Positions 626 to 57,237 of a stretch of DNA of 58,631 nt are shown here, one piece after another (positions within the stretch are counted from its first letter, which is position 1; every line of letters begins with the position of its first letter). This DNA comes from a virus (taxonomy: Duplodnaviria > Caudoviricetes). A model generated the notes under the pieces. The model did no database searches and had not been told where the DNA came from. It saw only the letters and a program-made list of their open reading frames with translations. A program made the translations under genes and the position numbers. Where the stretch lies: positions 1-58,631 of the IMG/VR virus record IMGVR_UViG_3300037510_000677, one strand, 5' to 3'.

Positions 626-855
626 TGAAGGCTAATGAAGAGTGTGAGTGGACATCAGGTTGCAACTATCTATGTAAAGATTTCTCAAATGCATGGCCTG
701 TTTCATGCTTTAAATGCATGGAAATCTTTATATATGAAGGAGACCACGATTTTGAATATTATTGGGGTAAAATAAAATCAGATTTTTCTAGATCTCTTTA
801 TAAAGATGCTCATTTTATTCTTCGAAAACTTATTGAAAGAGAAAGAAACAAATGA
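625..855 (+). CDS. Small hypothetical protein, cassette subfamily A
   Basis: Paralogue of 138..383. Confidence 0.75.
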   Translation: MKANEECEWTSGCNYLCKDFSNAWPVSCFKCMEIFIYEGDHDFEYYWGKIKSDFSRSLYKDAHFILRKLIERERNK

Positions 856-897: not shown

Positions 898-1281
898 ATG
901 AAAAGTTTTCAAGGTCACCAGGGAGATGTTTTCTTCCAAGACGTAACCCATGACAGCCATTTTTTAGACTTTATGGCTGGCGGATTGGGCGGATTAGAAT
1001 TAGTAAAGCCAGATGAGGATGGGCAAACCACGATCGTAAAGGGGGAAGCCACCCATCACCATCATCGGGCGCAATGTACTACCTATGAAGCTGCTAACAT
1101 GGGTAATTTTCAAGCATTTATTTGTGATGCTAACGAAGATGTTCATTTAGAGCATTATCATATGACTAAGAAGAAGCCGACGGGTGAACATAGCGTTGTG
1201 CCGTGGAAGAAAGCTAAGTACCTTGTTAGAACCCAACAACAAGCGGACTTAGAGGGTAATTTGTTTCCGGTCACTGATTAA
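898..1281 (+). CDS. Conserved His-rich phage protein (QGDV...GEATxHxH...EH family)
   Basis: HQGDV, GEATHHHH, EH and YLVRTQ motifs; AGGAG RBS. Confidence 0.8.
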   Translation: MKSFQGHQGDVFFQDVTHDSHFLDFMAGGLGGLELVKPDEDGQTTIVKGEATHHHHRAQCTTYEAANMGNFQAFICDANEDVHLEHYHMTKKKPTGEHSVVPWKKAKYLVRTQQQADLEGNLFPVTD

Positions 1282-1293
1282 TTTTTAGACACT

Positions 1294-1328
1294 AACCGCT
1301 GTTATTAGATAGGTAATAGCGGCGGTTA
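1294..1328 (+). terminator. Hairpin, possible terminator
   Basis: AACCGCTGTTATT...TAATAGCGGCGGTT imperfect inverted repeat after 898..1281. Confidence 0.4.
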
Positions 1329-1712
1329 ATGTTTTGGTGCTTTATGTCTTCTGATTTAAATAATCAACAAAAGAATGAAAATCAAATCATTAAAGATTTA
1401 TCTGCTGCTCAACGAGAAGAGATAGTTAAAGCGACAATGAGGTTTTCTTTTGGTAGTTCTAATTTTCCGGGGGCTTCGTTTAGACCTGGCTTAGCAGCTA
1501 TTTTTGGCAGAATTGGCATTGGCATTGGCAGAAGAAGAAAACGAAAACCAGGAGAAGTAGATTTTAATTTTGGTCACGGACATCCTTTAAACAGCGAAAG
1601 TTACAAAGAATTAAAAGATAAAATTAAAGATAAAATTTTTGCTGAAATTCAAAGGCCAACGCTTATTAGATGGTTTAAGAAAATATTATGCAAAGCAAAG
1701 AAAATCCTATAG
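1329..1712 (+). CDS. Cassette protein (subfamily B) carrying capsid-like peptides
   Basis: GHPL..SYKELKDKIKDKI helix; KATMRFSFGSSNF and RPGLAAIFG resemble the capsid termini; start may be 1344. Confidence 0.75.
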   Translation: MFWCFMSSDLNNQQKNENQIIKDLSAAQREEIVKATMRFSFGSSNFPGASFRPGLAAIFGRIGIGIGRRRKRKPGEVDFNFGHGHPLNSESYKELKDKIKDKIFAEIQRPTLIRWFKKILCKAKKIL

Positions 1713-1897
1713 TTTTTGATAGAATTATAGCTTCTGATATTGATGTGCGTTTTAAATTTTATTTTATTTCCCAAAATGAGTCAGCAGATATTGGCAGGTA
1801 CTTTAATCTTGAAGGGTATTTATGGTCTGATTTTAACAGCTGGAAAGAGCTTAAAGATAGAATCATTCAAGAAGTTCTTAAGAAAAATGCAAAGTAA
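1688..1897 (+). CDS. Small cassette protein, subfamily B
   Basis: EGYLWSDFNSWKELKDRII; N-terminus MQSKxxPI shared with the next gene. Confidence 0.75.
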   Translation: MQSKENPIVFDRIIASDIDVRFKFYFISQNESADIGRYFNLEGYLWSDFNSWKELKDRIIQEVLKKNAK

Positions 1898-2159
1898 AAA
1901 GCATCCCATAATGTATGATGAGTATGATGAGGTTATATTATTTTTTACTGGAACATTCTTTTATTTTGTCTCCTCGCAAAAAAATCTGTCAGATAATTAT
2001 AAGTATATTTGCATTGAAGGACATTTTCTGTCTGATTTTAAAGATTGGAAAGAATTTAAAGACAGAATCATACATTTTTATAAGATTTACCGCTTAAAAA
2101 TGATAAGAAAAATGTTGTTTTATCAGCTGTCTTTTGTTTATTTTTGCGCAGGTTACTGA
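1887..2159 (+). CDS. Small cassette protein, subfamily B
   Basis: Start re-called at ATG 1887 (MQSKKHPI); EGHFLSDFKDWKEFKDRII. Confidence 0.75.
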   Translation: MQSKKHPIMYDEYDEVILFFTGTFFYFVSSQKNLSDNYKYICIEGHFLSDFKDWKEFKDRIIHFYKIYRLKMIRKMLFYQLSFVYFCAGY

Positions 2160-2160
2160 A

Positions 2161-2376
2161 ATGAAAATTGAAGAAAAGCCATATTTTATAGACAGAATGA
2201 ATATGTGGTCATCAGGGACAATTATTTTTCTCTGTTCGCAAAATATGTCAGACTATCTTTTATATGCATCCCACGATGTAAAAGAATTCCCTCTTGAATA
2301 TATATTCAACGATCTTAAATCGCTAAAAAATAAAATCTTAAACAATTATATTCAAAAAATTAACCATGAAAAATGA
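2161..2376 (+). CDS. Small cassette protein, subfamily B
   Basis: Start re-called at ATG 2161; FNDLKSLKNKIL helix. Confidence 0.65.
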   Translation: MKIEEKPYFIDRMNMWSSGTIIFLCSQNMSDYLLYASHDVKEFPLEYIFNDLKSLKNKILNNYIQKINHEK

Positions 2377-2569
2377 AGAATTTTATAACGTAAATAGAGT
2401 GACTTTATTTTCTACAAGATTTATTTTTTACGGCGACGTAGACGGCAACGTATTTCATCGCACCAATCTGCCGTTTAGCCATCCTTTTGGCGACTTTTGT
2501 GGCACTTTTAAATCAATAAAGGATAGAATAGTAAAAGAAATGCTAACGCGGAATAACCTCAATCCTTGA
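2366..2569 (+). CDS. Small cassette protein, subfamily B
   Basis: HPFGDF..TFKSIKDRIV helix. Confidence 0.7.
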   Translation: MKNEEFYNVNRVTLFSTRFIFYGDVDGNVFHRTNLPFSHPFGDFCGTFKSIKDRIVKEMLTRNNLNP

Positions 2570-2719
2570 AGTATAAACAATCGAAGAGGAATCAGAAGAA
2601 TAATTCTGCTCGATAACCACGGGAGTTTGCCCGTATAACTTTGTTTGAGTGAAAGGCTTATTTTTATGACAGCCTGAAATTAAAATACAAAAAAATATCA
2701 ACAAAATAAGCCTTTTCAT
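2543..2719 (-). CDS. Small lipoprotein, 58 aa (not in ORF track)
   Basis: MKRLILLIFFCILISGC lipobox; GAGGA RBS. Confidence 0.7.
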   Translation of the reverse strand: MKRLILLIFFCILISGCHKNKPFTQTKLYGQTPVVIEQNYSSDSSSIVYTSRIEVIPR

Positions 2720-2728
2720 GCTTTATCC

Positions 2729-26735: not shown

Positions 26736-27647
26736 TTAGGGTCCATTGCTACCGTAAGCTGCTCGGAAGTTAGATACCCCAAAACTGTATCTTTCCACAG
26801 CTTTTGCAAGTAAGTTGTCGGTACTAAATTCTGTGTAAACGTCAGTTTTAACTGGTGTTCTAACATAATGTTTAAACCCATCTGGCGCATCTGTGAGCAG
26901 GTACCAAGCATTAGGTTGGTATGGTGTCAGGTATTGGTTAACCCGGTAACCTTGTGGAACCATCTGCAAGTTGTAGAGCGCATTGATGTCATTTAGTTGC
27001 GTACCAACGCGGAAAGAAGATTGGAGCAATCTTTCAGCGGTAAATTGTCCTTGTGGAGGTACAATCAATTTCAAAGGTTTAGTTTGGATGATAAGGCCTG
27101 CTTGGTCTTTGAATTGCTGAACCGTCACAATCGCGGCTTCTAAAGAAGCTTCAGATAAGTCCGCTTGTACAACGGGGGTATTAGCAACAACGCCACCTGC
27201 TGTAATCGGGTGATTCAAAGAAAACAATGGCTGACCGTCACCAATTGGGAAGGCTGCATTAAAGCCATTGTTAAGAATTGAAGCGCCTAAAATTTCCTTG
27301 GTCTGAGCTAAGGATTTCTTTAAAGCTCTAACCATTAATGGGAATTTTGACTTGTAAAGGTTGTCTTCCATTGCTTGTTGCGTAATCGCAAAGCTTAATC
27401 CGACGAACTTATGAACATAAGAAGTCGTGATAGCTTGTTGCATGGAATCAACTGCGGTTGGCGCACCTTCTGGACGAATTTGCGCAAGCCCTAGCATCTT
27501 CATTTCTTCTTCGATTTCAACCGCTTTATCTGAGTGGTAGACTTCGAAAATTTCCGACCATTGTGATGGGTACTGTGGATAGTCCCCGAAAACTGCGGCT
27601 AATCCAGGTCGTAAGAGATTAGCGATTTGAGTAGTATTAATTGCCAT
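26736..27647 (-). CDS. Major capsid protein (Mu gpT-like, HK97 fold)
   Basis: LRPGLAAVFG..Y, EDNLY, GDGQPLFS..HP, LIVPP, KAVERYSFG. Confidence 0.88.
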   Translation of the reverse strand: MAINTTQIANLLRPGLAAVFGDYPQYPSQWSEIFEVYHSDKAVEIEEEMKMLGLAQIRPEGAPTAVDSMQQAITTSYVHKFVGLSFAITQQAMEDNLYKSKFPLMVRALKKSLAQTKEILGASILNNGFNAAFPIGDGQPLFSLNHPITAGGVVANTPVVQADLSEASLEAAIVTVQQFKDQAGLIIQTKPLKLIVPPQGQFTAERLLQSSFRVGTQLNDINALYNLQMVPQGYRVNQYLTPYQPNAWYLLTDAPDGFKHYVRTPVKTDVYTEFSTDNLLAKAVERYSFGVSNFRAAYGSNGP

Positions 27648-31145: not shown

Positions 31146-31934
31146 TTAACAGCTCTTAATCTTCTTTAAAGGTTTAGGTTTGCCGCTAAGGGTTGCTTCT
31201 CCATGACGAATTTTGGCGACACCGCCTGCTGCTAATTTCACAGGTTTCACCTTGACGCCATGCTCACCGCGCATTGGCCAATGAGTGTCTCCTCCCATCG
31301 AGCCGCGTAAATTGCCAGAGCCTGACTTGGAATTTCCACCCATGGTTTGACTAACGCTTGGGCCTTGCGGATCTGCGTAACCGCCCGCATTAAAACGCTT
31401 TAAGTGTCCGCCTGCTTTTAACTTGACGGACTTTACTTTAACCCCGTGTTCGCCTTTCATTGGCCAATGGGTATCGCCCCCTTTGGAGCCTCTTAAATTG
31501 TCATGCCCTGCTTTAACTGGGCCCCCTGAGGCGTAGCAATGTTTTAGATGGCCTTCGCCTTTCTTCATCATGTGCACACGTCTGGTTGGGTGACGGGCAA
31601 CACCGCCTTTCTTTAGGTGTTCAGCATCTTCGAACTTAACCGTTTTCATGGCTGGTGTTTTTGCACGCGTTGGAATGTGTAAATCGGTTTGCTCTTTGCT
31701 CATGGCATGGGTTTTTGGAGTACTTCCGCCCATGACCTTTGCTGCATGGTGACGAGGAGCGGGGTTGCCCTCGATTGCGTGACCGCCATTTTTAAAAGGA
31801 CGCATATTGGTTCTGCCAGGACTTGACATGCTCATGGTTTGTGCTGGATGGTCTGCTGCTCTTAATTCATGAGCAAACATCTTTTCTGCGTTTGAACGCA
31901 TAGAATCATTTCCGCTAAAGCCAGGTTTAAACAT
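31146..31934 (-). CDS. Basic low-complexity protein with xxxGG repeats
   Basis: Start re-called at ATG 31934; FKNGG/LKKGG/YASGG/LKAGG/FNAGG/LAAGG; 31-aa internal duplication. Confidence 0.7.
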   Translation of the reverse strand: MFKPGFSGNDSMRSNAEKMFAHELRAADHPAQTMSMSSPGRTNMRPFKNGGHAIEGNPAPRHHAAKVMGGSTPKTHAMSKEQTDLHIPTRAKTPAMKTVKFEDAEHLKKGGVARHPTRRVHMMKKGEGHLKHCYASGGPVKAGHDNLRGSKGGDTHWPMKGEHGVKVKSVKLKAGGHLKRFNAGGYADPQGPSVSQTMGGNSKSGSGNLRGSMGGDTHWPMRGEHGVKVKPVKLAAGGVAKIRHGEATLSGKPKPLKKIKSC

Positions 31935-34416
31935 TAGGTTTCTCCGCCTTGTGTTGAGGTTTACGTATATTGGCAATGACTAAGTCGACTTCGTTTTTCT
32001 CCTCAGCCATTTCTTGCTCGGCTTCTATCTTGGCCTTATCGCCCTCGAATCGAAGCTGTGTCTTAAAGGCTTCCACTTCTGCCTTCTCTTGTGATATTTC
32101 CTTATCTGCTTCAACACGCGCCATCGTTTCTTGTGATTTTAATTGAGCGGCTTCGCGTCTTTGTTCAATGTCTGCCATCATGACTTTTTGCGGTATGATT
32201 TGAGCCTCTTGTGCTTCCATTTGTTGTAATTGTTCTTGCTCCATCTGCTGCTTGGCTTCTTCAGCATTCATCAATGAAACTTGATTTTGAATTTCTGGTA
32301 TTTGTAATAATTGTTCTTCGGGTACATTAAACTGCTGCGCCAACATTGGGTTTTGACTTAAGATTTGTTTTGCAACTTTATTGGCGTAATGCGATTGAAT
32401 ATGGGATTCCATTTGCATCATAAACATAGGATTTGTTTGCATAAAAACAGGATTATTGGAAACCTGCTGCACAAATCTACGATGAAGTAAGATATGTGAA
32501 TCATCATCTTGAAAATAAGCTGTCCTAATCGGCTGATTTTGAAATAAAAGGACATTTTCAGAATTAGCGTCTAAGGCTTGAGGTTGCGGGACAGGCTTTA
32601 ACAGCTTATCGATGTTATCAATCCCCATCGCGGTATACATCATGCGATAGGCTTCTCTTAAGTCATGCATCTCTGGGGCGGCTTGAGCAAGCTTTAAAAA
32701 CGCTTCTGCCCTTAATAACCGATGCGTGCTGGTTAAGACATTGGGGTCTGATACCGGAACGATATTAATTCTGTCGCTAAAATCTTGCTTCATGATGGCA
32801 GATTCTTTACCGGGCACCATGAAGGGATAAGGTTCTGGGGGAAGCACGTCTGCAAAGAGGTCAAACAAAAGCTTGAATTCGTACTTTTGCGAATTATGCA
32901 TTGACATTAGGGATGCTGATTGCAACCGGGTTGCAATCTCAATCATAGAAAGCGTTGTACCAACGGGGGTGTTTTGCCCCTGCTCTGGTATCTGCTCTTC
33001 GGTAGCTGCCAAAAGACTTAAGGTCTCTTGTTTTAGCTCCGTTCGCAAAGCTGCCAAGACTTGAGATGGTTCTGCATAAGGCATCGGCATGATGCAGTCG
33101 CTTATTGGCATCCCGCCCGTTTCGACTTCATGCCATTCTGCAGGCCCAATGGCTTTATCATTGGTTTCTGCTCTCAAGCTCTTGGTCTTAAGCCCCCCTG
33201 GGAAATTTTTTAAAGTACCAGCGTCTAATTGCTGTCTTAGGACACTAGTTAAGGTAATAGAGTTAGAGCCCACTAAATGGGCAAGCCCAATGCCATAAAG
33301 TCCAAAGCCTGGTAAGAACTTATATTGGACAAAGTATTCGCGTCTTTTAAAGTTTGGGTCGCCTTCTTTCCAGTTGCGCCTGATGGCAACAACCTTTTTA
33401 AGCGCCTCGCAAATTGTGACGATGTAAGGGCATGGCAATTCGTTGCGTTTAGTGTCTTCATCGCTTCGTAAATCCTTTTCATCAAGTTCTACGTGGCATT
33501 CATACATTTTGAAAAGGCTTTTGTTTTCGCTGGTACCCTTGTCTAACCCCTCTAGATTTTCTGATTTCTTATTAATAGAGGATGGTTCATCATCTTCATC
33601 ATTGGCGTTTTCAGGGAGCGTGCACTTAACAAATTCCCCCCGGCTTTGTCTTAATAAAAAATCTTTACGGGTAATGTAGTAAACTTGAGTCACGCGGTTA
33701 GAGGCCAACAAGGATTCAGTGTTAATGTTGACGATAAAGTCTTGCGGTTTAACAAAGCGGCCAATGGGAAGATTGGTTAAGGGGTCTTGGTAGACCTTCC
33801 TAAAACCAGAGCCCATGAAGATGGTATAAAGGATAGCTTCGTCAAAATCGGGATAATAATCTTTATCAAGCTCTGTTAAATAGTAGTTCATGAAGAGTTT
33901 AACGCGGTCAGCTTCGTCTTCAGTTGCTTCTGTGGGGGTTCCAATGATTTCCACTCTAACTGGCCCAGCGGGCGGTAAAAGCTCTTTTTTAAAGACGGAG
34001 TAGTTACGGTATAGGGCAGTTGCTAACGTCGTGTCATAAGCCGCACAGGCCTGAAAAAAGGGGATATTGCGAAACTCTTCTACCTTAAGGCCAAGATAGT
34101 TCATGGCTAAGACGATTGTCTTTTCCCATTTGTCCCGGCTTGCCATGTCGTCTTTGATTTCATCAATCAGACGGGAGGCCAAAGCGCTCAAGGAAGGCGA
34201 CTTTAAAGATAGAGCTAAGTTCGCGTAGAAGTCGTCCTCGGGGGGTAAAACATCAGAATCACCACCCGAGTCTTCACTGACGACCTCATAAACCGTTGAA
34301 CCGTCCGGTAGTTCGGCAGTGGCTTGAATGTCTTCTAAAGGAATACCAGTATCGTCCTCAATGGGAGGAAGGATGTCGATTTCTACTTCATCTTCTTCTG
34401 GGAATTGAAACGCCAT
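31927..34416 (-). CDS. Portal protein
   Basis: F.ANLA...SR..WE; GSGFRKVY.D; YFVQYKFLPGFGLYGIGL.HL; RQ.LDAGTL.N.PGG; PVSDPN; Gln-rich tail. Confidence 0.9.
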   Translation of the reverse strand: MAFQFPEEDEVEIDILPPIEDDTGIPLEDIQATAELPDGSTVYEVVSEDSGGDSDVLPPEDDFYANLALSLKSPSLSALASRLIDEIKDDMASRDKWEKTIVLAMNYLGLKVEEFRNIPFFQACAAYDTTLATALYRNYSVFKKELLPPAGPVRVEIIGTPTEATEDEADRVKLFMNYYLTELDKDYYPDFDEAILYTIFMGSGFRKVYQDPLTNLPIGRFVKPQDFIVNINTESLLASNRVTQVYYITRKDFLLRQSRGEFVKCTLPENANDEDDEPSSINKKSENLEGLDKGTSENKSLFKMYECHVELDEKDLRSDEDTKRNELPCPYIVTICEALKKVVAIRRNWKEGDPNFKRREYFVQYKFLPGFGLYGIGLAHLVGSNSITLTSVLRQQLDAGTLKNFPGGLKTKSLRAETNDKAIGPAEWHEVETGGMPISDCIMPMPYAEPSQVLAALRTELKQETLSLLAATEEQIPEQGQNTPVGTTLSMIEIATRLQSASLMSMHNSQKYEFKLLFDLFADVLPPEPYPFMVPGKESAIMKQDFSDRINIVPVSDPNVLTSTHRLLRAEAFLKLAQAAPEMHDLREAYRMMYTAMGIDNIDKLLKPVPQPQALDANSENVLLFQNQPIRTAYFQDDDSHILLHRRFVQQVSNNPVFMQTNPMFMMQMESHIQSHYANKVAKQILSQNPMLAQQFNVPEEQLLQIPEIQNQVSLMNAEEAKQQMEQEQLQQMEAQEAQIIPQKVMMADIEQRREAAQLKSQETMARVEADKEISQEKAEVEAFKTQLRFEGDKAKIEAEQEMAEEKNEVDLVIANIRKPQHKAEKPNV
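33092..33120 (-). repeat. 29-nt portal segment duplicated exactly at 39557-39585
   Basis: atgcagtcgcttattggcatcccgcccgt occurs at both loci. Confidence 0.95.
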
Positions 34417-34763: not shown

Positions 34764-35054
34764 ATGATGTTCGTAAGTAAATTTCCATCAGGATTGTCTG
34801 CATTATTTGCATATGGACTCGGTGATGACAATCACGGCAAAGGTCATAACCCAACGATAAGCTCTTGGCGAGAATGTTTAGACTATATTACTTATAATTG
34901 TATTTATGGTAAAAACATCCAACACACCTATTGTAAGACAGAATTTGAGTGCTTAAACATTATATCCGAAATTTTTAGGGTGTTAGACCGGGGCAGATAC
35001 AAGGAATGCAAAGATTTTATTATTGAGATGGTTAGAGAAAGGATTGAGGGGTGA
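34764..35054 (+). CDS. Cassette protein, KDFI family
   Basis: YKECKDFIIEMVRER. Confidence 0.75.
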   Translation: MMFVSKFPSGLSALFAYGLGDDNHGKGHNPTISSWRECLDYITYNCIYGKNIQHTYCKTEFECLNIISEIFRVLDRGRYKECKDFIIEMVRERIEG

Positions 35055-35473
35055 AAAAATATTTATTTAGAGCTTATTGCGTACCGGAAAACAAATGGTA
35101 TTATCGAAACATTGACGTGCAAAATTCATTTGGACAAGATGAATTCTTAGATGAAGAATCATTTAGCTTATTTTCTGGGTTAGTAGACGGCAATGGCGTA
35201 AAAATATTTGAGGGCGATGTGGTTTCGGTTTTTTCGGGATTTGGCGAAAACAATCATCAAATAAGAAGAATAGCTTTAGTTGTATTTGAAAATAGCTTTT
35301 TCAAACTTAAGTTACCGCGATGTCTGCTTCCTTATACCCTTGAGCAATATTGTAATAGTATGTCTAATTTAATATCGATTATAGGTAATATATATGAAGG
35401 AAGATTTAAACATTTAGAATCTATAATTCTAGCTGATGATAATTATAAGATATACGAGGAGGATTGGGTATGA
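35051..35473 (+). CDS. YopX-family protein
   Basis: FRAY...FSGLVDGNGVKIFEGDVV...V.F....F...IIGNIYE. Confidence 0.85.
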   Translation: MKKYLFRAYCVPENKWYYRNIDVQNSFGQDEFLDEESFSLFSGLVDGNGVKIFEGDVVSVFSGFGENNHQIRRIALVVFENSFFKLKLPRCLLPYTLEQYCNSMSNLISIIGNIYEGRFKHLESIILADDNYKIYEEDWV

Positions 35474-35483
35474 GAGCTGAAGG

Positions 35484-35666
35484 ATGAAGCGCATTACAAT
35501 AAGCGATTATTATCATGCGCGCGATTTATATTTAAATCATGGAGAAGATGATGATGTTTTCAATATTATATGTGATATTTTTCAAACATTACATTGGGAA
35601 AGCCCTAAAGAATGCAAAAATATTATCCTTAAAAAGATAAGGAAAACTAATGACGATAAGAAATAA
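35484..35666 (+). CDS. Cassette protein, KDFI family
   Basis: NIICDIF..L....KECKNIIL; paralogue of 34764..35054. Confidence 0.7.
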   Translation: MKRITISDYYHARDLYLNHGEDDDVFNIICDIFQTLHWESPKECKNIILKKIRKTNDDKK

Positions 35667-35901
35667 AAAATACTTGATAGTGCTTTTAGCATTTTTAATG
35701 CTGAGCGGCTGCGCAACGCATGAAGCAATACCGCCTGATAAGCTGCCAGGATTTTTTACTGGACTTTGGCATGGCTTTATAATAATATACTCGGTTATCG
35801 CCCATCTTTTTAATGAAAACATACGAATATATTCTACCTATAATAACGGTGGATGGTATGATTTTGGATTTTTCATTGGAATTTGTGTTTTTTTTAGTTA
35901 G
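35650..35901 (+). CDS. Conserved membrane lipoprotein
   Basis: LSGC lipobox; GFFxGLWHG...NNGGWYDFGF. Confidence 0.8.
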   Translation: MTIRNKKYLIVLLAFLMLSGCATHEAIPPDKLPGFFTGLWHGFIIIYSVIAHLFNENIRIYSTYNNGGWYDFGFFIGICVFFS

Positions 35902-35910
35902 GGAAGCAGT

Positions 35911-36009
35911 ATGAACTGGAATAAAGAAAAGTGTATGAGTTTTTTAGTTAAAGTGGTTACCGTTGTAGCGTGTATAGCGCTTTTTATTTTGCTTAAGAAG
36001 TATTCGTGA
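35911..36009 (+). CDS. 32-aa single-TM peptide (not in ORF track)
   Basis: MNWNKEKCMSFLVKVVTVVACIALFILLKKYS fills the gap exactly. Confidence 0.5.
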   Translation: MNWNKEKCMSFLVKVVTVVACIALFILLKKYS

Positions 36010-36300
36010 ATGACAGAAGAAATACACCCAACAATAAAGAGGTTGATTAATGAGGGAAAGTTGAGTGTTGGTCAGTTTTATAATGAAGATAAAAAATCTG
36101 CTGACTGGTGCTATTTTGTTAGGGATTTTTATGTCTTGTGGGAGCTATTTTCGGCCGGATTAATATCGGAAAGCCAGAGAGAAAAAATGAGCAGCGTGCT
36201 TTGTGCAACCACAAGAGTAATATTAGTCAAGAAGGATTTTATAATGCAACAGATAATAATAAGCATCTATGAACATCGAGAAATCGATGACAAAAGCTAA
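36010..36300 (+). CDS. Cassette protein, KDFI family
   Basis: VKKDFIMQQI. Confidence 0.7.
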   Translation: MTEEIHPTIKRLINEGKLSVGQFYNEDKKSADWCYFVRDFYVLWELFSAGLISESQREKMSSVLCATTRVILVKKDFIMQQIIISIYEHREIDDKS

Positions 36301-36526
36301 AATATTTGACGGCTCACTTGATTTTGCAATATTTAATTGGTATTGGCATGATTGTTATCTTTCGTCAATATTCCGCGAGATTATTCATGGAATAAAACAG
36401 GAAGATGAAGTGTTAAAAAGTAGGGAAATATTAAATTTTTTCAGCTTTATATTTCATAACAAGCCCAAGGAAGCAAAGGATTTTATAATGGAGCAAGTAA
36501 GGAAGAATGATGCAGGGCGAAATTGA
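36287..36526 (+). CDS. Cassette protein, KDFI family
   Basis: PKEAKDFIMEQVRK; start re-called at ATG 36287. Confidence 0.7.
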   Translation: MTKAKIFDGSLDFAIFNWYWHDCYLSSIFREIIHGIKQEDEVLKSREILNFFSFIFHNKPKEAKDFIMEQVRKNDAGRN

Positions 36527-36845
36527 TAACTTTATTGCAGAGCTGAAGGGAATAGCTGAATATAGTAGCGCTTCATCAATGCTATCGCCTTTCCACAAAC
36601 GTGTTGGGATCAATTATGGCTTAGAATTGCAAAGGCTTTATCTTTATGATGCTTATTGTATTAAGAATTCAACAGGACTATTAACGCTGTACAGGCTATA
36701 TAATCGCATACGGGACAAGCATGACCTTTATTTGTTAATTTTTATTGGGCTTGAGCTTAGAGGTCGCATCTATGAAAGCAGAAATACAAGAAAACTTATA
36801 AAAGATTATATAATGCAGGTAATTAGGGATAAGCAAAATGGTTAA
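36507..36845 (+). CDS. Cassette protein, KDFI family
   Basis: RKLIKDYIMQVIRDK. Confidence 0.75.
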   Translation: MMQGEIDNFIAELKGIAEYSSASSMLSPFHKRVGINYGLELQRLYLYDAYCIKNSTGLLTLYRLYNRIRDKHDLYLLIFIGLELRGRIYESRNTRKLIKDYIMQVIRDKQNG

Positions 36846-37116
36846 AAGCGACAACTTTTATAGCGATGAATATTGCATTATAAGTAATCCGTATGAATAT
36901 GAGTATATCTATAGGCTTTATGAATTTAACAAAATTGGATGTGATTTTAAAGGAAAAGGTTTGGGTGATACTTTCTGGGATGAAAACCCGGTTTCAAATT
37001 TTTTAGATTTACTAATTCATCCGCGGTCATTAAGAAATTTTCTTCTTAGAGGTTCATCTTATAAAAACGCTAAAGATATTATAATGAACGCTGCCGCAAA
37101 GAAGGCGGCAAGATGA
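36838..37116 (+). CDS. Cassette protein, KDFI family
   Basis: YKNAKDIIMNAAAKK. Confidence 0.75.
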   Translation: MVKSDNFYSDEYCIISNPYEYEYIYRLYEFNKIGCDFKGKGLGDTFWDENPVSNFLDLLIHPRSLRNFLLRGSSYKNAKDIIMNAAAKKAAR

Positions 37117-37346
37117 TTTTTGAATACGTAATTTTAGAATCTGCAAGTGACATTAATTGCAACCTTTTTGCGTATACTTATGATGATTACGAATATTGGG
37201 AAAACTCAAATGATGAGCTTGCCTGTGATTTTTGTCGTAATATTTTATGGTATGCAGGAGGAGACTACTCGGTTTTAAAAAACTTTATTCTTGAAAGCAT
37301 AGAAAGAAAAATTAAACTGAATAACAAAAATGAACCAAATCCTTGA
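37113..37346 (+). CDS. Cassette protein, KDFI family
   Basis: YSVLKNFILESIERK. Confidence 0.7.
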   Translation: MIFEYVILESASDINCNLFAYTYDDYEYWENSNDELACDFCRNILWYAGGDYSVLKNFILESIERKIKLNNKNEPNP

Positions 37347-37719
37347 TTTGCTGCTTAATCATCTAACATGGGTATTGTTATTAACAATTGCTGTTCTTCC
37401 GTATTTTCATTTAATTAAAATACATAAGTATTGGGGTGATGGGTTGCACAGTTATGATTTTGACCGCTGGTTTTTTTATAGATTCCTATCAGATGATATC
37501 GTATATTTTAGATTGATTCCTGAAGGACATTTAGTAAAAAAACCCAAAATAGCAAGAAAATTTATTACCACAGACAGGATTTCGATGCTTCACAAATTCT
37601 TATGGCATATTGAGACTAATAGCTCGGCGCTCGCAAGAAAGATGATTATGAATGAAGTTAACTATTTAACCGCCATTAACCGCAAAGCACAAGACTTCCC
37701 CCCCCCTAATACCCGTTAG
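37330..37719 (+). CDS. Cassette protein with N-terminal TM segment
   Basis: KFLWHI...ALARKMIMNEV. Confidence 0.7.
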   Translation: MNQILDLLLNHLTWVLLLTIAVLPYFHLIKIHKYWGDGLHSYDFDRWFFYRFLSDDIVYFRLIPEGHLVKKPKIARKFITTDRISMLHKFLWHIETNSSALARKMIMNEVNYLTAINRKAQDFPPPNTR

Positions 37720-38123
37720 ACGCAATCTTTCATCTTAGCCTCATACATTCTTTTAATAAATTCTACCATAAGAGTGTAGGCGTTTTTCCCCATGACGGGT
37801 GTATTCCTAGCCACATAAAACTTCAAGTTAAAGAAATGACATTTAAAGCTTTGGCAGTATATTTTTAAACCCATCATTTCCTTGTCCGTAATAAGTGGAA
37901 AATTTGAAGTTTTAGAGTCAAATAAAGCATTAAAAGTTTCAAAATCAACATTCACCGATACGCCAAATATGTAGCCTTTGTCATTCTCTTCTTGCCATGT
38001 TAATAGTCGATGATCTATCTCAAAAAAAGAGGTTGTTATAAAATGAAATTGTTCGTCTTCCTCGGAATGGTTATCTACCTTTAAATACCATAAGGGATCT
38101 GTAAGTATCGTTATTAAGCTCAC
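37716..38123 (-). CDS. Cassette protein (divergent member)
   Basis: Start re-called at GTG 38123 after AGGAGG; junction identical to that of 38453..38746. Confidence 0.7.
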   Translation of the reverse strand: MSLITILTDPLWYLKVDNHSEEDEQFHFITTSFFEIDHRLLTWQEENDKGYIFGVSVNVDFETFNALFDSKTSNFPLITDKEMMGLKIYCQSFKCHFFNLKFYVARNTPVMGKNAYTLMVEFIKRMYEAKMKDCV

Positions 38124-38194
38124 TTCAGCGCCTCCTTTAAATACCATAATGGCTCTGTAAGTGATGGCACATTTTCGTCATCATTCTGATTCAT
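38120..38194 (-). pseudogene. 24-codon chimeric cassette remnant
   Basis: MNQNDDENVPSLTEPLWYLKEALK; LTEPLWYLK matches the downstream gene, KEALK matches the end of 38743..39015. Confidence 0.6.
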
Positions 38195-38468
38195 TTGTAA
38201 TTCTTTTCCTAACAGCATCTAATATATGGTCTCTTAAAAGAGTGTGACCATTTCTGCAAGATAGATAATTTAATATTAACAAAAAATGGATAGCAAAAGA
38301 CAGGCCCTTCTCGATTGACACCATCCAACCGTGACCAGAAATAAAAGATAGCTCACATGGCTGTGCCTTCAAACCCATAGGTCTTGTAAGGCTTTTTAAT
38401 GTTACACAATCTATGTTATCTAAACCAATCATAGATATAAAATATTCATCATTTAAGCTTTCTGACAT
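38181..38468 (-). CDS. Cassette protein, KDFI family
   Basis: HTLLRDHILDAVRKR. Confidence 0.7.
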   Translation of the reverse strand: MSESLNDEYFISMIGLDNIDCVTLKSLTRPMGLKAQPCELSFISGHGWMVSIEKGLSFAIHFLLILNYLSCRNGHTLLRDHILDAVRKRITNESE

Positions 38469-38746
38469 TTTTGAACTTCCTTCATAATTATGTCTTTTGC
38501 TTGCTTAATCTTTCCTTCTCTACGCAATAAAGTAATATCGTGTAAAAATTTAAAGACAAAATTACCTCTAATAGCTTCCAGGTTTGTTGATGTAAATTTA
38601 TATAATTTTTTATTAATGCAGCGGGAACGAACTGACCATTTTGAAATAAATACATAACAATCATCCAATTCTTGAAAGATAATGCCTTCTGACAACAAGA
38701 ATACACCATCCACCGGGTCGTCCAGGTTTATCCTTATTAAGCTCAC
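38453..38746 (-). CDS. Cassette protein, KDFI family
   Basis: FKFLHDI...IKQAKDIIMKEVQK. Confidence 0.75.
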   Translation of the reverse strand: MSLIRINLDDPVDGVFLLSEGIIFQELDDCYVFISKWSVRSRCINKKLYKFTSTNLEAIRGNFVFKFLHDITLLRREGKIKQAKDIIMKEVQKCQKA

Positions 38747-39015
38747 TTCAGCGCCTCCTTTTTAATCATCTGCATTACTCGCTGTGCATCATAATGACTT
38801 AAGGCATGTAAAAGCTGAAAAACAAAAATTTTTATATCTCCTTCAAAAACAAAATGATTGTAGTCAACAAAACCAACAAATTTTTGGACTTCTGCCCATG
38901 ACCAAATAATAGGGCCGCTCCAATAAAAACCATAATCAAACTTAAAGTGATATGGAATTTGCAAGCTTTTATAATCTACATTATTGATTATAAACCTTTT
39001 TATAATTATTGACAT
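38743..39015 (-). CDS. Cassette protein
   Basis: FQLLHAL...RVMQMIKKEALK. Confidence 0.7.
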   Translation of the reverse strand: MSIIIKRFIINNVDYKSLQIPYHFKFDYGFYWSGPIIWSWAEVQKFVGFVDYNHFVFEGDIKIFVFQLLHALSHYDAQRVMQMIKKEALK

Positions 39016-39404
39016 CTTTTAGTCTCGATTTCTTTCAAGATAAAATCTTTGTCTTGTTTGTTAGACCATACAGAAAGCCAAAACATAAATAAAAACTTTC
39101 CAGCAAAAGACGACCTGTAATCAATATAATCTTTGTAATTTTTAATTAAATCGGCATTTTGTTTATGTGCAAGACATACCCATCTTTTGACCAGTTTAAC
39201 GTTCCTTCTATCTATTGGAATTAATTTATCCAAACTAACCACGCATAAATATACGCAATCATAGTCTATGTAGACATCAAAAACAAAACCCTTTTCTTTA
39301 AATTCATTGATGCACGGTATCGCACGGTATCTCTCAAAATTTTTGCTAATATGATATATTCTCTGGTTTCTTAGAGCCAAATCATCAATACTCAAAGTCT
39401 TCAT
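39006..39404 (-). CDS. Cassette protein, KDFI family
   Basis: GKFLF...NKQDKDFILKEIETK. Confidence 0.75.
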   Translation of the reverse strand: MKTLSIDDLALRNQRIYHISKNFERYRAIPCINEFKEKGFVFDVYIDYDCVYLCVVSLDKLIPIDRRNVKLVKRWVCLAHKQNADLIKNYKDYIDYRSSFAGKFLFMFWLSVWSNKQDKDFILKEIETKRCQ

Positions 39405-39684
39405 TTTCTACCCCCAGTTTTACCAAGCGCTTCTTTTCTGCCTCGCGCATAATCTTGTTTTTAATGTATTCCATGCTAAGATTAACACTCATGCAGTGTA
39501 AAAAATCTAACACGAATATTTGGCATATCTCGTTGAAAGTTCCATGATAAATGTCAATGCAGTCGCTTATTGGCATCCCGCCCGTAACGTTACTTGGCGT
39601 TCCTGTGCAAAAAACATGATGATCTAAATATTTATAAAAAATAGCGCCATTCGTTAATATTATCGGCTTATCTCCTTCTGTCAT
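39385..39684 (-). CDS. Cassette protein carrying portal peptide TGGMPISDCI
   Basis: LDFLHCM...EYIKNKIMREAEKK; exact portal-derived 29-mer in frame. Confidence 0.8.
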   Translation of the reverse strand: MTEGDKPIILTNGAIFYKYLDHHVFCTGTPSNVTGGMPISDCIDIYHGTFNEICQIFVLDFLHCMSVNLSMEYIKNKIMREAEKKRLVKLGVENEDFEY

Positions 39685-39866
39685 TTTATACCACCCTTCT
39701 TGACTCTATCCATAATTATGTCTTTTAAGGCTTTGTAATCTATTTGATGTGGCCAATGTAATTGGTCTAAAAACATTAATGTACCACTATAAGATTTCCA
39801 TACCGAACAAATTTGGGTGCCGACATAGATATACCTTAACGTTATCGGCTTGTCATTTTCCGTCAT
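39681..39866 (-). CDS. Cassette protein, KDFI family
   Basis: MTENDKPI N-terminus shared with neighbour; YKALKDIIMDRVKK. Confidence 0.75.
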   Translation of the reverse strand: MTENDKPITLRYIYVGTQICSVWKSYSGTLMFLDQLHWPHQIDYKALKDIIMDRVKKGGIK

Positions 39867-40078
39867 TTTCTAGCCTCTTTGATAAAATTCATAATAGCAT
39901 GCCGCTTTCTTTCGGGTGCAAGCCAACTTGATGCTATTACAAAGGGTAATTCTTCTTGTGGAGTTAGGTTATCATCAGCTATATCCCGAAATCTAAACTC
40001 TCCATCTTTAGTTTTTATTATTTTTTCCCATCTTATTTCCCGAGGACCTATAACTAAACGCACATCAATTATCTCCAT
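39863..40078 (-). CDS. Cassette protein
   Basis: RKRHAIMNFIKEARK; coupled to neighbours. Confidence 0.65.
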   Translation of the reverse strand: MEIIDVRLVIGPREIRWEKIIKTKDGEFRFRDIADDNLTPQEELPFVIASSWLAPERKRHAIMNFIKEARK

Positions 40079-40391
40079 TTCTGCGCCTCTCTATTTCTCT
40101 TTTAATCCAGTTAACCTTTAACTTAAATGAAAATCTGTTGTCCAAAATCACAAAAGGAGTCTGCTCTCTTTCTGGTAAAGAATTAAACCATTCTCTTTGT
40201 ATAAAATTCCATTGGTCTTGTTAAAATCTTATTGCATAATTACTCCACGCTTCGCACCAGCCAAATCCTTCAATTGGTTTCGACATCATTATGGGCTCAT
40301 GATACCAATTGAAATTCGAATCGTAATAACTAAAAAAAGTTACCGAGTCACCGAAGTACAAATACCCCCTTCTAATTAGATAATGCTTCAT
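40065..40391 (-). pseudogene. Cassette gene interrupted by an in-frame TAA at 40221-40223
   Basis: 56 codons, TAA, then 51 more in-frame codons ending KLKVNWIKREIERRRNGDN. Confidence 0.55.
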
Positions 40392-40395
40392 TGCC

Positions 40396-40647
40396 TTACC
40401 AACCCTCCATATTTTTCACCTTCTTGATTTCCTGCATAATAAAATCTTTAATCATTTTTTGCCGTCCTTCCCAGATTAAATCAAAAAGCTTCATGACAGG
40501 TGTAATTTTTAATACTCTGCCTACAATGAAAAAACCTCTATTATTTGTGAAATAAAAGTATATCCTCGGTAAAATATCATCACTAAAGCCCAAATGCCCT
40601 TCTTCGAGCAGATAATAATCTTGTGACCAAAATGTTTCGTCATTCAT
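40396..40647 (-). CDS. Cassette protein, KDFI family
   Basis: MKLFDLI...QKMIKDFIMQEIKK. Confidence 0.75.
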   Translation of the reverse strand: MNDETFWSQDYYLLEEGHLGFSDDILPRIYFYFTNNRGFFIVGRVLKITPVMKLFDLIWEGRQKMIKDFIMQEIKKVKNMEGW

Positions 40648-41009
40648 CGCCCTGATTTCCTGTCAATCTCTTCCATAATAAAATCTTTCAATATTTTAGC
40701 AGAAAATGCACCAATAAATTTATCTTGATTAATCTGTGTAAGAAATTTCATAATAAATGTTGGCGGCGATTCTAATTCAATTCTTTGATAATAAGAATTT
40801 CCATTATTATAGGCAGGATTATATTCCTTAAAATAAAAATAAAATTTATTTACATCACTATTTTTTACGCCTGCATTTCCTTTTTCTAAAAATCCTATAT
40901 GTATTGCTAAGTAGCTACCACATTCGGATTCTCTTATTATTTCAGGTCTTTTCTTATTAGGCGTTCTACATTTAAAACAAGCACAATTATCACCATGTAT
41001 TGTAGTCAT
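40644..41009 (-). CDS. Cassette protein, KDFI family, with N-terminal HxxxCxCxxC
   Basis: MKFLTQI...AKILKDFIMEEIDRK; overlaps the terL stop. Confidence 0.75.
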   Translation of the reverse strand: MTTIHGDNCACFKCRTPNKKRPEIIRESECGSYLAIHIGFLEKGNAGVKNSDVNKFYFYFKEYNPAYNNGNSYYQRIELESPPTFIMKFLTQINQDKFIGAFSAKILKDFIMEEIDRKSGR

Positions 41010-54645: not shown

Positions 54646-54847
54646 TACCCGTTCTATTATTGAAGCCAACATCGAAGAGATGATAAAAGCAGGGCATTCA
54701 AGGCAGCAGGCAATTGCAGCAAGTTATGAAAACGCAAGAAGACATCCAACATTACCTACCGCTCAACCAAACAAAACCACAAACGCCCTTAAAGTTTCTG
54801 AACCTGTTAAAAGAGGAAGGGGTCGCCCCCGTAAAAATCCGGCGTAA
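54626..54847 (+). CDS. Small conserved phage protein with AT-hook
   Basis: MPL..G.....I..NI.E..KAG....QA.A.....AR; KRGRGRPRK. Confidence 0.75.
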   Translation: MPLIPGNTRSIIEANIEEMIKAGHSRQQAIAASYENARRHPTLPTAQPNKTTNALKVSEPVKRGRGRPRKNPA

Positions 54848-55202
54848 GCCAGCTTTAAAAGAATCTCAATTCCAAGCAAATGTTTTTACATGGCTAACCT
54901 TACAATACCCTCACGTTAGGAAATTAACGTTTGCGGTTCCTAATGACAGCAGGAGAGACAAAAAGCATGGTGCTCGCTTAAAAAGAAGCGGGATGACAGC
55001 AGGAGTCTCCGACATCATCTGTCTTTGGCCTAATAAAAAATACCATGGATTAGTCGCCGAATTAAAAATTGGCAAAAATAAGCTAACAGATTTACAAAGC
55101 GAATTTCTTGAAAACGCTAAACAAGCAGGCTACAGCACGAATGTGTGGTATAGTCTTGATGAGGCCATGGAAGGTTTTAAAAAATATTTAAACCCTTCCT
55201 AA
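54726..55202 (+). CDS. VRR-NUC domain nuclease
   Basis: ESQFQ...FAVPN...LKRSGMTAGVSD...ELK..KNKLT..Q..F; start uncertain. Confidence 0.85.
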   Translation: MKTQEDIQHYLPLNQTKPQTPLKFLNLLKEEGVAPVKIRRKPALKESQFQANVFTWLTLQYPHVRKLTFAVPNDSRRDKKHGARLKRSGMTAGVSDIICLWPNKKYHGLVAELKIGKNKLTDLQSEFLENAKQAGYSTNVWYSLDEAMEGFKKYLNPS

Positions 55203-56435: not shown

Positions 56436-56597
56436 ATGTTTAACATATTGGAAGTTAGAGAATTATATGATATCGATGATGAAGTTGCGGCGTTGGTCAG
56501 AGAAGAAGAGCTCATCCAGGAGTTGTTGATGCAGGAGATGGCTAAAGCCAACGACGAGAGTATTGATTTATTTTTTGAAGATGCGAGGGGATTGTAA
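56436..56597 (+). CDS. 53-aa acidic protein (not in ORF track)
   Basis: GAGGAGGG RBS; 16 D/E versus 4 K/R. Confidence 0.65.
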   Translation: MFNILEVRELYDIDDEVAALVREEELIQELLMQEMAKANDESIDLFFEDARGL

Positions 56598-56598
56598 G

Positions 56599-57237
56599 AT
56601 GATGGAGTATCAAAATAAGTCTGCGAGTATTCAGGAGCTGGCTAAAGCGCTGTGTGAATTTCAAAAAAACATTAGAGATGTGCAAAAAGACGCGCATGCC
56701 CATAAACATGATTATGCGACACTGGGGGCGATTTTAGCGTTGGCGCGTCCGTTGTGGACGGAGCATGGGTTTTCGGTATTACAATTGGGGGTAGATCATG
56801 CTACTGAAGAGAGTATTATTGTGTTGGAAACGATGTTGTTGCATGTGTCTGGGCAATGGATTTCTTCAAGGTTTCGGTTTAAGGTGCCTCCTTTAAAGAA
56901 TTATGCCCAAGACGCAGGGCTTATTATTAGTTACATGAGGCGGTATTCTTTGGCGGCGCTCCTTGGGATTACACAGGTAGACAATGATGCTGAGATAGAA
57001 ACAAAGGGGAGCAGTGATAAAAAGAAAAGAGAAATGGTTGATATTGAGACCGGAGAGGTTTATAAAATGCTTGTCTCTCCTGAAACGGTTAGCCAATTAA
57101 GAATAGAAATGCAAAAGAAAGGGGATGAGATACAAGGTAAAATGTATGAATGGTTAGGAAAGCAGGGTAAAGATCGGTTAGAAGAGCTAACTGAATCCCA
57201 AGCAAAAGAATGTTTAGTAAGGTTGAGAAGTGTATGA
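56599..57237 (+). CDS. erf: ERF-family ssDNA-annealing recombinase
   Basis: ELAKAL..FQ, YATL, LET.LLHVSGQWISS, Q..G..ISYMRRYSL.A.LGI...DND. Confidence 0.9.
   Translation: MMEYQNKSASIQELAKALCEFQKNIRDVQKDAHAHKHDYATLGAILALARPLWTEHGFSVLQLGVDHATEESIIVLETMLLHVSGQWISSRFRFKVPPLKNYAQDAGLIISYMRRYSLAALLGITQVDNDAEIETKGSSDKKKREMVDIETGEVYKMLVSPETVSQLRIEMQKKGDEIQGKMYEWLGKQGKDRLEELTESQAKECLVRLRSV

What the first reader, a model, noticed from the sequence alone, without database searches (positions are those of the whole stretch)
1428..1508. Small early protein contains both ends of the phage's own major capsid protein, joined C-terminus first
Seen: KATMRFSFGSSNFPGAS matches the capsid C-terminal KAVERYSFGVSNFRAAY (26754-26804; 10/17 identical). 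One residue later, RPGLAAIFG matches the capsid N-terminal RPGLAAVFG (27585-27611; 8/9 identical). In the second block the DNA differs mainly at synonymous sites, pointing to protein-level selection or capture from a relative. Established: some defence systems sense capsid proteins (e.g. CapRel-SJ46). Inference: a capsid-epitope decoy, or an assembly inhibitor of competing phages, displayed on the shared-helix scaffold.
Basis: partly seen in the sequence, partly recalled or inferred. Interest (0 to 1): 0.85.

Follow-up and report, generated by a model that had tools for sequence, protein, structure and literature searches.

The report
Orphan phage gene with capsid-like peptides
A small orphan gene of a soil phage really does carry two short peptides resembling the two ends of the phage's own capsid protein, most likely as a copied patch rather than a proven decoy, and chance is not excluded.

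Summary
ORF 1344..1712 (+, 122 aa) contains KATMRFSFGSSNFPGAS (10/17 identical to capsid residues 282-298), one residue, then RPGLAAIFG (8/9 identical to capsid residues 13-21). The capsid (26736..27647, -) is an HK97-fold, Mu-gpT-like protein, and both motifs are its most conserved terminal segments.

Significance is moderate. Each block alone lies within chance range. Two adjacent blocks against one protein give about 0.004 per genome, less if adjacency counts.

There is no DNA-level signal: synonymous sites are saturated, and no closer donor was found.

The ORF is an orphan. It shares only a helix with four neighbouring paralogues that lack the peptides, carries slippage repeats and folds poorly. 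Expression could not be tested.

Two clear precedents exist. An exact 29-nt piece of the portal gene sits in another small gene of this genome. A related phage has an orphan 111-aa ORF stitched from three pieces of its own capsid gene.

My reading:
- Short copied patches in fast-evolving accessory genes: about 0.4.
- Chance resemblance: about 0.35.
- A selected capsid mimic (decoy or assembly modulator): about 0.25, with no direct support.

The parts
1344..1712 (+). Small orphan ORF, 122 aa plus stop (alternative ATG at 1329)
   Evidence: Only itself found among 5.8e9 clusters, 1.84e9 representatives and IMG/VR. AF2 pLDDT 49.8.
1428..1478 (+). Block 1, KATMRFSFGSSNFPGAS, resembling the capsid C-terminal strand (residues 282-298)
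   Evidence: 10/17 identical, score 49. 27/51 nt, pS 0.96. Up to 11/17 identical to relatives' capsids.
1482..1508 (+). Block 2, RPGLAAIFG, resembling the capsid N-arm motif (residues 13-21)
   Evidence: 8/9 identical to the phage's own capsid. 9/9 to four IMG/VR capsids, best DNA identity 23/27.
1512..1530 (+). ATTGGC x3.2 tandem repeat encoding GIGIG, just after block 2
   Evidence: TRF
1609..1637 (+). 12/13-nt x2.3 tandem repeat that duplicates KDKI inside the family helix
   Evidence: TRF; alignment
1293..1328 (+). Terminator-like hairpin directly upstream of the ORF start
   Evidence: dG -24.7 kcal/mol, z -5.2, 0 of 200 shuffles fold as well.
1688..2569 (+). Four tandem paralogues of about 67-90 aa sharing the K-E-L-K-D-R-I helix; none has the capsid-like blocks
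26736..27647 (-). Major capsid protein gene, 303 aa, HK97 fold. Motifs at 26754-26804 (C-terminal strand) and 27585-27611 (N-arm).
   Evidence: Pfam Mu-like_gpT 41.6 bits and Phage_capsid_4 40.6 bits. phrog_371. AF2 pLDDT 80.6. Foldseek hits to HK97-type capsids.
39557..39585 (-). Exact 29-nt copy of portal-gene segment 33092-33120 (peptide TGGMPISDCI) inside small family gene 39385..39684
   Evidence: (D12). The segment is conserved in relatives' portals, so the direction is portal to small gene.
31927..34416 (-). Portal protein gene, donor of the 29-nt patch
   Evidence: phrog_1216, 3.9e-18
34764..41009 (.). Two clusters of small genes (16 counted) ending in the K-D-F-I-M-x-x-I helix, lying between the portal and terminase genes
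   Evidence: Only this genome's own proteins found in 5.8e9 clusters.
56563..57237 (+). Erf-type single-strand annealing protein, a possible agent of short-patch recombination (inference)
   Evidence: Pfam ERF 65.7 bits; phrog_2324 5.1e-33

Best explanation
The ORF is a lineage-specific, fast-evolving accessory gene. It lies at the end of the rightward replication and recombination gene block and is a bloated relative of the four small genes that follow it. Its middle part is a mosaic. Short stretches templated on a capsid gene, the C-terminal strand and then the N-arm motif, were stitched in out of order by template switching or short-patch recombination, and replication slippage added GIGIG and KDKI. 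The donor would be an unsampled relative's capsid gene, not the resident copy. On this reading the capsid-like peptides are a by-product of how such genes are built. Any binding to capsid partners is incidental and unproven.

Shown: the resemblance, the orphan status, the slippage repeats, and that the same kind of copying happens in this genome and in a relative. Inferred: that this particular patch arose that way, and the mechanism.
For: 1. The same genome holds an exact 29-nt copy of a conserved portal-gene segment inside another small gene.
2. Relative G001 (capsid 74% identical) has a 111-aa orphan ORF with a good ribosome-binding site. It is built from three out-of-order pieces of its own capsid gene: residues 153-185, 42-59, and 43-58 again. 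DNA identity is 77% over 70 nt and 87% over 45 nt, E 9e-9.
3. DNA-detectable transfers from a structural gene into a small gene occur in 2 of 6 whole genomes compared.
4. The ORF is 2nd of 15,881 real ORFs against the capsid profile, right after the G001 ORF.
5. Natural capsid variants cover the blocks almost fully. RPGLAAIFG occurs exactly in 4 IMG/VR capsids. KATERFSFGISN (L112) matches the first 12 residues of block 1 at 10/12.
6. Two slippage repeats lie in the same ORF.
7. Both mosaic ORFs are orphans.
8. The genome encodes an Erf annealing protein.
Against: - Unlike the two precedents, this patch has no DNA-level similarity beyond what the shared residues force (pS 0.96 and 0.77).
- No sampled capsid is a good donor: best 32/51 and 23/27 nt. 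None combines both motif variants.
- GC3 of the blocks is not distinctive.
- The first half of block 1 can also be aligned with the paralogues' own R-F-x-F strand.
- The 9-mer of block 2 is not capsid-specific: 115 of the first 118 metagenome matches were not in an ORF of capsid-like length by my crude test.
- If the patch came from the phage's own ancestor, keeping 18/26 residues with saturated synonymous sites would instead imply selection.
Confidence: 0.4

Rival explanations
1. Chance resemblance. The ORF is simply a diverged paralogue with an insertion rich in G, A, F and S. Two short matches to the capsid fell next to each other by coincidence and were noticed because a very large scan was read.
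For: - Each block alone is within the null range. Shuffled small ORFs against large proteins give 5-9 HSPs of 45 or more per genome, with maxima of 50-55.
- A certainly unrelated VRR-NUC domain scores 61 against the capsid.
- HMMER with the capsid family profile gives only 7.3 bits, E 0.34.
- In the profile test the margin over the next ORFs is only about 3 bits.
- There is no DNA-level signal, and RPGLAAIFG-like 9-mers are common in unrelated metagenome contexts.
- R-F-x-F occurs in the paralogues.
Against: - Two hits to the same protein from a 122-aa ORF: 0 of 3000 shuffles and 0 of 76 shuffled proteomes for partners of 130 aa or less.
- About 0.004 per genome by two independent estimates, and lower with adjacency.
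- Both blocks fall on the capsid family's conserved terminal motifs. They match 6 of 7 conserved N-arm positions and 6 of 8 conserved C-terminal positions.
- The same phage group demonstrably makes such mosaics.
Confidence: 0.35
2. Selected mimic. The protein displays the capsid's N-arm motif and P-domain strand so as to bind something that normally binds them. That partner could be scaffold, protease or a neighbouring subunit, giving control or poisoning of assembly. It could also be a host sensor of capsid protein, giving a decoy.
For: - If the blocks descend from the resident capsid lineage, 18/26 identical residues with saturated synonymous sites imply purifying selection.
- The matches concentrate on family-invariant positions.
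- The ORF lies in the early/replication-side gene block.
- Capsid proteins are known triggers of bacterial immunity: CapRel-SJ46 (PMC9712102, listing and start of abstract seen) and Avs7/Dsr1 (PMC13581612, passages seen).
- Phage-encoded blockers of virion assembly exist: Tab (PMC10884400, abstract seen).
Against: - There is no homologue anywhere, so no evidence of conservation.
- The analogous G001 ORF is also an orphan, and its patches evolve at dN/dS of 0.4-0.5 against a constrained capsid. That means near-neutral evolution on its own branch.
- The invariant E285 of the capsid motif is M in the ORF.
- The block region is modelled at pLDDT below 50.
- A strong terminator-like hairpin sits directly upstream, with no promoter-like site between.
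- There are no PADLOC, Pfam or PHROG matches.
Confidence: 0.25

Closest known systems
Phage genome mosaicism by illegitimate or relaxed (Rad52/Erf-type) recombination and template switching
   Same: Short, sharply bounded stretches are copied between unrelated genes, and an Erf-type annealing protein is encoded. The link between Rad52-like recombinases and mosaicism is recalled from the literature and was not read here.
   Different: The patches are tiny (about 27-70 nt) and lie within genes. They are taken from the phage's own virion genes and, in G001 and possibly here, several pieces of one donor gene are stitched out of order. I found no description of this in my searches.
Capsid-sensing bacterial immunity (CapRel-SJ46, Avs7/Dsr1) and phage counter-measures
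   Same: These systems show that capsid protein surfaces are recognised inside the cell, which is the premise of the decoy reading (PMC9712102, listing and start of abstract; PMC13581612, passages).
   Different: No capsid-peptide decoy is described in the papers I saw. Nothing here shows a sensor, binding or early expression.
Phage- or satellite-encoded assembly interferers (Tab tail-assembly blocker; Sid and CpmB size determinants, the latter recalled)
   Same: These are small proteins encoded by mobile elements that act on virion assembly (Tab: PMC10884400, abstract).
   Different: There is no sequence or fold relation, and none of them is known to me to be built from pieces of the target protein.
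G001 mosaic ORF (L083:19216-19548) in a related phage
   Same: It is a small orphan ORF in a tandem family of accessory genes that contains out-of-order pieces of the phage's own capsid protein.
   Different: G001's pieces are longer, come from other parts of the capsid (E-loop and an A-domain helix) and are still recognisable at DNA level. The two ORFs are not homologous to each other.

Membership tests
HK97-fold major capsid protein, Mu gpT-like (for gene 26736..27647) | Matches the family profiles above curated cut-offs | tested here: met
   PF10124 at 41.6 bits (cut-off 20.1) and PF25209 at 40.6 bits (cut-off 27). phrog_371 at 3.7e-19.
HK97-fold major capsid protein, Mu gpT-like (for gene 26736..27647) | HK97 fold | tested here: met
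   AF2 model pLDDT 80.6. Foldseek probability 1.00 to HK97, T5, D3 and Mu capsids, TM 0.5-0.6.
Capsid-derived sequence (homology of blocks 1 and 2 to a capsid gene) | Protein similarity beyond chance | tested here: inconclusive
   0 of 3000 shuffles. Rank 2 of 15,881 real ORFs, but only about 3 bits clear of the tail. HMMER E 0.34.
Capsid-derived sequence (homology of blocks 1 and 2 to a capsid gene) | DNA similarity beyond what the shared residues impose, or an identifiable donor | tested here: not met
   pS 0.96 and 0.77. Best relatives 32/51 and 23/27 nt.
Capsid-derived sequence (homology of blocks 1 and 2 to a capsid gene) | Blocks present in homologues of the ORF | not testable with these tools
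   No homologue exists in the databases searched. The in-genome paralogues lack the blocks.
In-genome small-protein family with the C-terminal K-D-F-I-M / K-D-R-I-I helix | Significant match to the family's C-terminal helix profile | tested here: inconclusive
   Pan-family profile: 7.4 bits, E 0.77. Local four-member profile: 9.5 bits, E 0.18, but 0 of 2000 shuffles reach it. The ORF is adjacent, on the same strand, and shares a 19-nt DNA repeat at 84% identity (D4).
Anti-defence decoy of a capsid sensor | Binds or blocks a host sensor; expressed before the capsid; conserved | not testable with these tools
   The host is unknown (soil metagenome), no RNA run is listed and there is no homologue. 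PADLOC gave no hit.
Assembly inhibitor or modulator acting on the capsid protein | Physical interaction with capsid or scaffold | not testable with these tools
   One co-folding job was run and returned no verdict; see Tried and rejected.

The most novel reading that the evidence does not exclude
Phages of this group repeatedly build small early proteins by grafting peptides of their own virion proteins onto a constant handle. The handle is the C-terminal helix here and the N-terminal MxKFLDNGIILCDxP in G001. The grafts are capsid N-arm plus P-domain strand here, a portal segment in gene 39385..39684, and capsid E-loop plus A-domain helix in G001. Some of these self-peptide displays would be kept by selection, either as decoys for host sensors of virion proteins or as timers or poisons of head assembly.
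Probability: 0.15. Interest if true: 0.8.

Novelty: new variant of a known kind. Interest (0 to 1): 0.42.

Why it matters
If the patch reading holds, it shows one concrete way in which orphan phage genes are assembled. Short pieces of the phage's own highly conserved virion genes are recycled into disposable accessory genes. It also gives a simple computable signature, out-of-order matches of small ORFs to the phage's own capsid or portal, that could be surveyed across viromes. If the mimic reading holds, it would be a new class of counter-defence or assembly control made from self-peptides. If it is chance, the case is a useful calibration: in a 58-kb phage, single 9-20-residue matches scoring up to 61 occur between unrelated proteins.

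Tried and rejected
- Homologue searches for the ORF found only itself: word-indexed search of 5.8e9 clusters, full HMMER over 1.84e9 representatives, an IMG/VR peptide-pattern scan, five whole related genomes, PDB sequences, Pfam, PHROGs and PADLOC, and the ESM Atlas, whose best scores were 0.75 and therefore leads only.
- Donor search. I compared codon-by-codon with 81 capsid genes. Three degenerate-pattern scans of IMG/VR gave 4, 2 and 8 hits. No DNA match better than 32/51 and 23/27 was found.
- GC content. The blocks are GC-richer (0.43-0.48 against 0.27 in the flanks). GC3 is 0.30, against 0.26 in the flanks and 0.38 in the capsid gene. The difference is therefore due to amino-acid composition, and I rejected it as evidence.
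- Co-folding of the capsid (alignment A2) with residues 15-75 of the ORF gave 'no answer', with scores 0.00 and 0.00 and controls not run. This is no evidence either way.
- AF2 of the ORF gave pLDDT 49.8, so its secondary structure is not interpretable.
- Adjacency of capsid residues 13-21 and 282-298 in 3D was not testable. Model coordinates are not exposed, and the N-arm pLDDT is about 50.
- Expression. No RNA holder is listed. Contigs from three other soil runs cover parts of 900-3100 with zero differences, so there is no population variation to analyse.
- Capsid-profile scans for further mosaic ORFs. None was found in 1.0 Mb around 84 capsid genes. One weak second hit (E 0.0047, G007) appeared among 10 further whole records. 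Other high-ranking short ORFs looked like chance when aligned.
- The apparent capsid-like segment of ORF 54714..55202 overlaps the C-terminal end of its VRR-NUC domain match (residues 82-146; segment 140-159), so I read it as that ORF's own sequence and rejected it as a patch.
- Repeats at 38078-38162 and 38106/38729 briefly looked like a repeat-spacer unit. They are shared 5' regions and ribosome-binding sites of minus-strand genes, which I judged from reading the sequence.
- Literature. Four searches found no report of small phage proteins built from capsid peptides. Supplements were not consulted.

Full report
WHAT IS THERE. The window is a complete virus record of 58,631 bp (CheckV 100%) with a 133-nt terminal direct repeat. 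It comes from soil metagenomes. ORF 1344..1712 (+) encodes 122 aa. Residues 29-45, KATMRFSFGSSNFPGAS, match residues 282-298 of the protein encoded at 26736..27647 (-) at 10 of 17 positions. One residue later, residues 47-55, RPGLAAIFG, match its residues 13-21 at 8 of 9.

The large protein is the major capsid protein:
- Pfam Mu-like_gpT and Phage_capsid_4 are above their cut-offs, and phrog_371 matches.
- It is 40-45% identical to annotated capsid proteins of Pelagibacter, Synechococcus, Planktothrix and Roseobacter phages.
- An AF2 model (pLDDT 80.6) matches HK97-type capsids.

In an alignment of 64 relatives' capsids, both motifs are among the best conserved parts of the termini. P14 and G15 are invariant, and L16, A18, F20 and G21 nearly so. 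R286 and G290 are invariant, and K282, E285, Y287, S288, F289 and S292 nearly so. The C-terminal motif is a long, confidently modelled strand (279-291). The N-arm is modelled with low confidence.

IS IT MORE THAN CHANCE? Shuffling the small protein never reproduces the summed score: 0 of 3000 shuffles, maximum 80 against 94. The capsid is by far its best partner among 333 ORFs.

The genome-wide picture is more sober.
- In an all-against-all scan of 104 crude genes the pair ranks 5th. Shuffled proteomes yield a pair with sum >=94 in 63% of 76 trials, though only between long, compositionally biased proteins. There were 0 of 76 with a partner of 130 aa or less.
- Single HSPs of 45-57 are routine in shuffled controls across the six genomes compared. 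The phage's VRR-NUC nuclease reaches 61 against capsid residues 244-263, in a segment that overlaps the end of its domain match and is taken to be its own sequence.
- The fairest test used a position-specific profile of the whole capsid family against 15,881 real six-frame ORFs under 250 aa from six genomes and 84 loci. The ORF is 3rd by best segment, 4th by second segment and 2nd by their sum (45.6 bits; the next are 42.2, 41.4, 41.4). The result is the same when the window's own capsid is left out of the profile.
- With motif windows fixed after the fact the ORF is first of 15,881 for both, but that choice is circular.
- 527 of the 15,881 ORFs are from this genome. Taking that share, the shape of the tail, and an independent rate calculation, I estimate about 0.004 per genome for such a double hit. 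The figure is about tenfold lower if one also counts that the two blocks abut.

That is suggestive, not decisive, for an item selected from a very large scan.

NO DNA-LEVEL SIGNAL, NO DONOR. Block 2 differs from the resident capsid gene at 7 of 27 nt, 6 of them synonymous. Block 1 matches at only 27 of 51 nt, with pS 0.96. Because the blocks were picked for amino-acid identity, this pattern is what chance, convergence, ancient descent under selection, or capture from a codon-divergent relative would all give. It does not by itself indicate selection.

Among 81 capsid genes the best DNA identities are 30/51 and 22/27. Pattern scans of IMG/VR found four capsids with exactly RPGLAAIFG (best 23/27 nt; their C-termini read KATQRYSFGVSDF and similar). 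They also found capsids with KATERFSFGISN or KATERFSFGITN (32/51 and 30/51 nt) and with SNFRGA (up to 30/51). Natural variation of the family therefore covers the ORF's blocks almost completely. No sampled capsid combines both variants or is close in DNA. A scan of metagenome contigs showed that RPGLAAIFG-like 9-mers also occur in many unrelated contexts.

WHAT KIND OF GENE CARRIES THE BLOCKS. The ORF has no homologue anywhere, including five complete relatives whose capsids are 60-74% identical. It is followed on the same strand by four tandem paralogues of about 67-90 aa. MAFFT aligns its N-terminal QQKNENQIIKD and its KELKDKI helix with theirs, which leaves about 30 extra residues that include block 2 and the end of block 1.

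Statistically only the helix is supported: 9.5 bits, E 0.18, with 0 of 2000 shuffles reaching it. The paralogues lack the capsid-like peptides.

The ORF also contains an ATTGGC x3 repeat (GIGIG) and a 12-nt duplication (KDKI KDKI). Both available models are poor (pLDDT 0.47 and 49.8). A strong terminator-like hairpin (dG -24.7, z -5.2) ends 15 nt before its ATG, with no promoter-like site in between. Expression could not be examined.

The helix belongs to a larger set of small genes. I listed 23, and 19 share a clear K-D-F-I-M-x-x-I motif. They occupy 34.7-41.0 kb and 1.3-2.6 kb, and they are absent from five relatives and from the protein databases.

THE PRECEDENTS THAT SHAPE MY READING.
1. 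Gene 39385..39684, a member of that family, contains an exact 29-nt copy (peptide TGGMPISDCI) of portal-gene positions 33092-33120. The segment is conserved in relatives' portals, so the portal is the donor.
2. Relative G001 has a 111-aa ORF with a strong ribosome-binding site. It is one of three tandem genes sharing the N-terminus MxKFLDNGIILCDxP. Its remainder is stitched from capsid residues 42-59, 153-185 and 43-58, out of order, with DNA identity of 87% over 45 nt and 77% over 70 nt to its own capsid gene (E 9e-9) and dN/dS of about 0.4-0.5. It too is an orphan.
3. DNA self-comparison shows such inter-module patches in 2 of 6 genomes. A capsid-profile search found nothing comparable in 10 further whole records except one weak hit, and nothing in the flanks of 84 capsid genes.
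4. The phage encodes an Erf annealing protein and a VRR-NUC nuclease.

INTERPRETATION. Accessory genes in this phage group demonstrably acquire short, sometimes multiple and out-of-order, pieces of the phage's own virion genes. The finding fits that pattern in architecture: two pieces of one donor gene, out of order, abutting, in an orphan gene that also shows slippage. It differs in lacking any DNA trace.

I therefore rank the readings as follows:
- A copied patch from an unsampled relative's capsid gene, with no demonstrated function: about 0.4.
- Chance: about 0.35.
- A selected capsid mimic, meaning a decoy or assembly modulator: about 0.25.

The mimic gains weight only if the patch descends from the resident lineage. 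In that case, retaining 18 of 26 residues with saturated synonymous sites would require selection. Against it stand the orphan status of both mosaic ORFs, the near-neutral evolution of G001's patches, the replacement of the invariant E285, and the poor fold.

Capsid proteins are established immune triggers (PMC9712102, listing and start of abstract; PMC13581612, passages). Phage-encoded assembly blockers exist (PMC10884400, abstract). I found no report of a protein built from capsid peptides.

LIMITS.
- 3D adjacency of the two capsid segments, binding, expression and population variation could not be tested.
- My gene calls for the proteome tests were crude, taking the longest non-overlapping ORFs.
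- The per-genome probability is an estimate, not an exact figure.

Noticed in passing
window 34764-41009 and 1344-2569 (also 138-383, 625-855): About 23 small genes (60-132 aa), roughly a tenth of the genome, end in a shared helix K-D-F-I-M-x-x-I preceded by an F-L-x-x-L helix, and are otherwise very diverse. They are absent from five complete relatives, and only this genome's own proteins turn up in 5.8e9 protein clusters.
   Followed up: partly
window 33092-33120 and 39557-39585: An exact 29-nt copy of a conserved portal-gene segment (peptide TGGMPISDCI) sits inside small family gene 39385..39684. It has sharp borders and a GC content of 0.59, against 0.37 for the recipient gene.
   Followed up: yes
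L083:19216-19548 (G001:39216-39548): A related phage has an orphan 111-aa ORF stitched from three out-of-order pieces of its own capsid gene. It belongs to three tandem genes sharing the N-terminus MxKFLDNGIILCDxP and contains an internal exact 21-nt repeat.
   Followed up: yes
window 44731-45777 (-): A 348-aa leucine-rich-repeat protein (LRR_6 77 bits, LRR_4, LRR_8), which is unusual in a phage.
   Followed up: no
window 53841-54404 (+): An S-adenosylmethionine decarboxylase homologue (AdoMet_dc, 104.9 bits) lies in the replication-side gene block, next to a DnaD/O-like initiator, a VRR-NUC nuclease and Erf.
   Followed up: no
window 54714-55202 (+), residues 140-159: A segment overlapping the C-terminal end of the VRR-NUC domain match (YSTNVWYSLDEAMEGFKKYL) scores 61 against capsid residues 244-263. 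I read this as a chance match, and it is useful as a negative control.
   Followed up: yes
window 52060-52099 and 52168-52207: An exact 40-nt direct repeat with copies 108 nt apart, in a region of short ORFs; its function is unknown.
   Followed up: no
L023:5274-5864 (G007:11359-11523 region): A 197-aa ORF about 4 kb upstream of that phage's capsid gene has a weak resemblance to the capsid N-arm and E-loop (profile positions 19-71; E 0.0047 per genome; gapped score 62; DNA identity 44%).
   Followed up: partly
G001:41200-46300 (L083-L084): A dense array of mutually similar ORFs rich in Gly, Tyr and Asp (GYGDG-type repeats) gives dozens of DNA self-matches. This is another lineage-specific gene expansion.
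   Followed up: no
window 138-383 and 625-855 (+): Two Cys-rich paralogues (FEYYW..K..SD...AHFIL motif) flank a small hydrophobic ORF at the start of the record.
   Followed up: no
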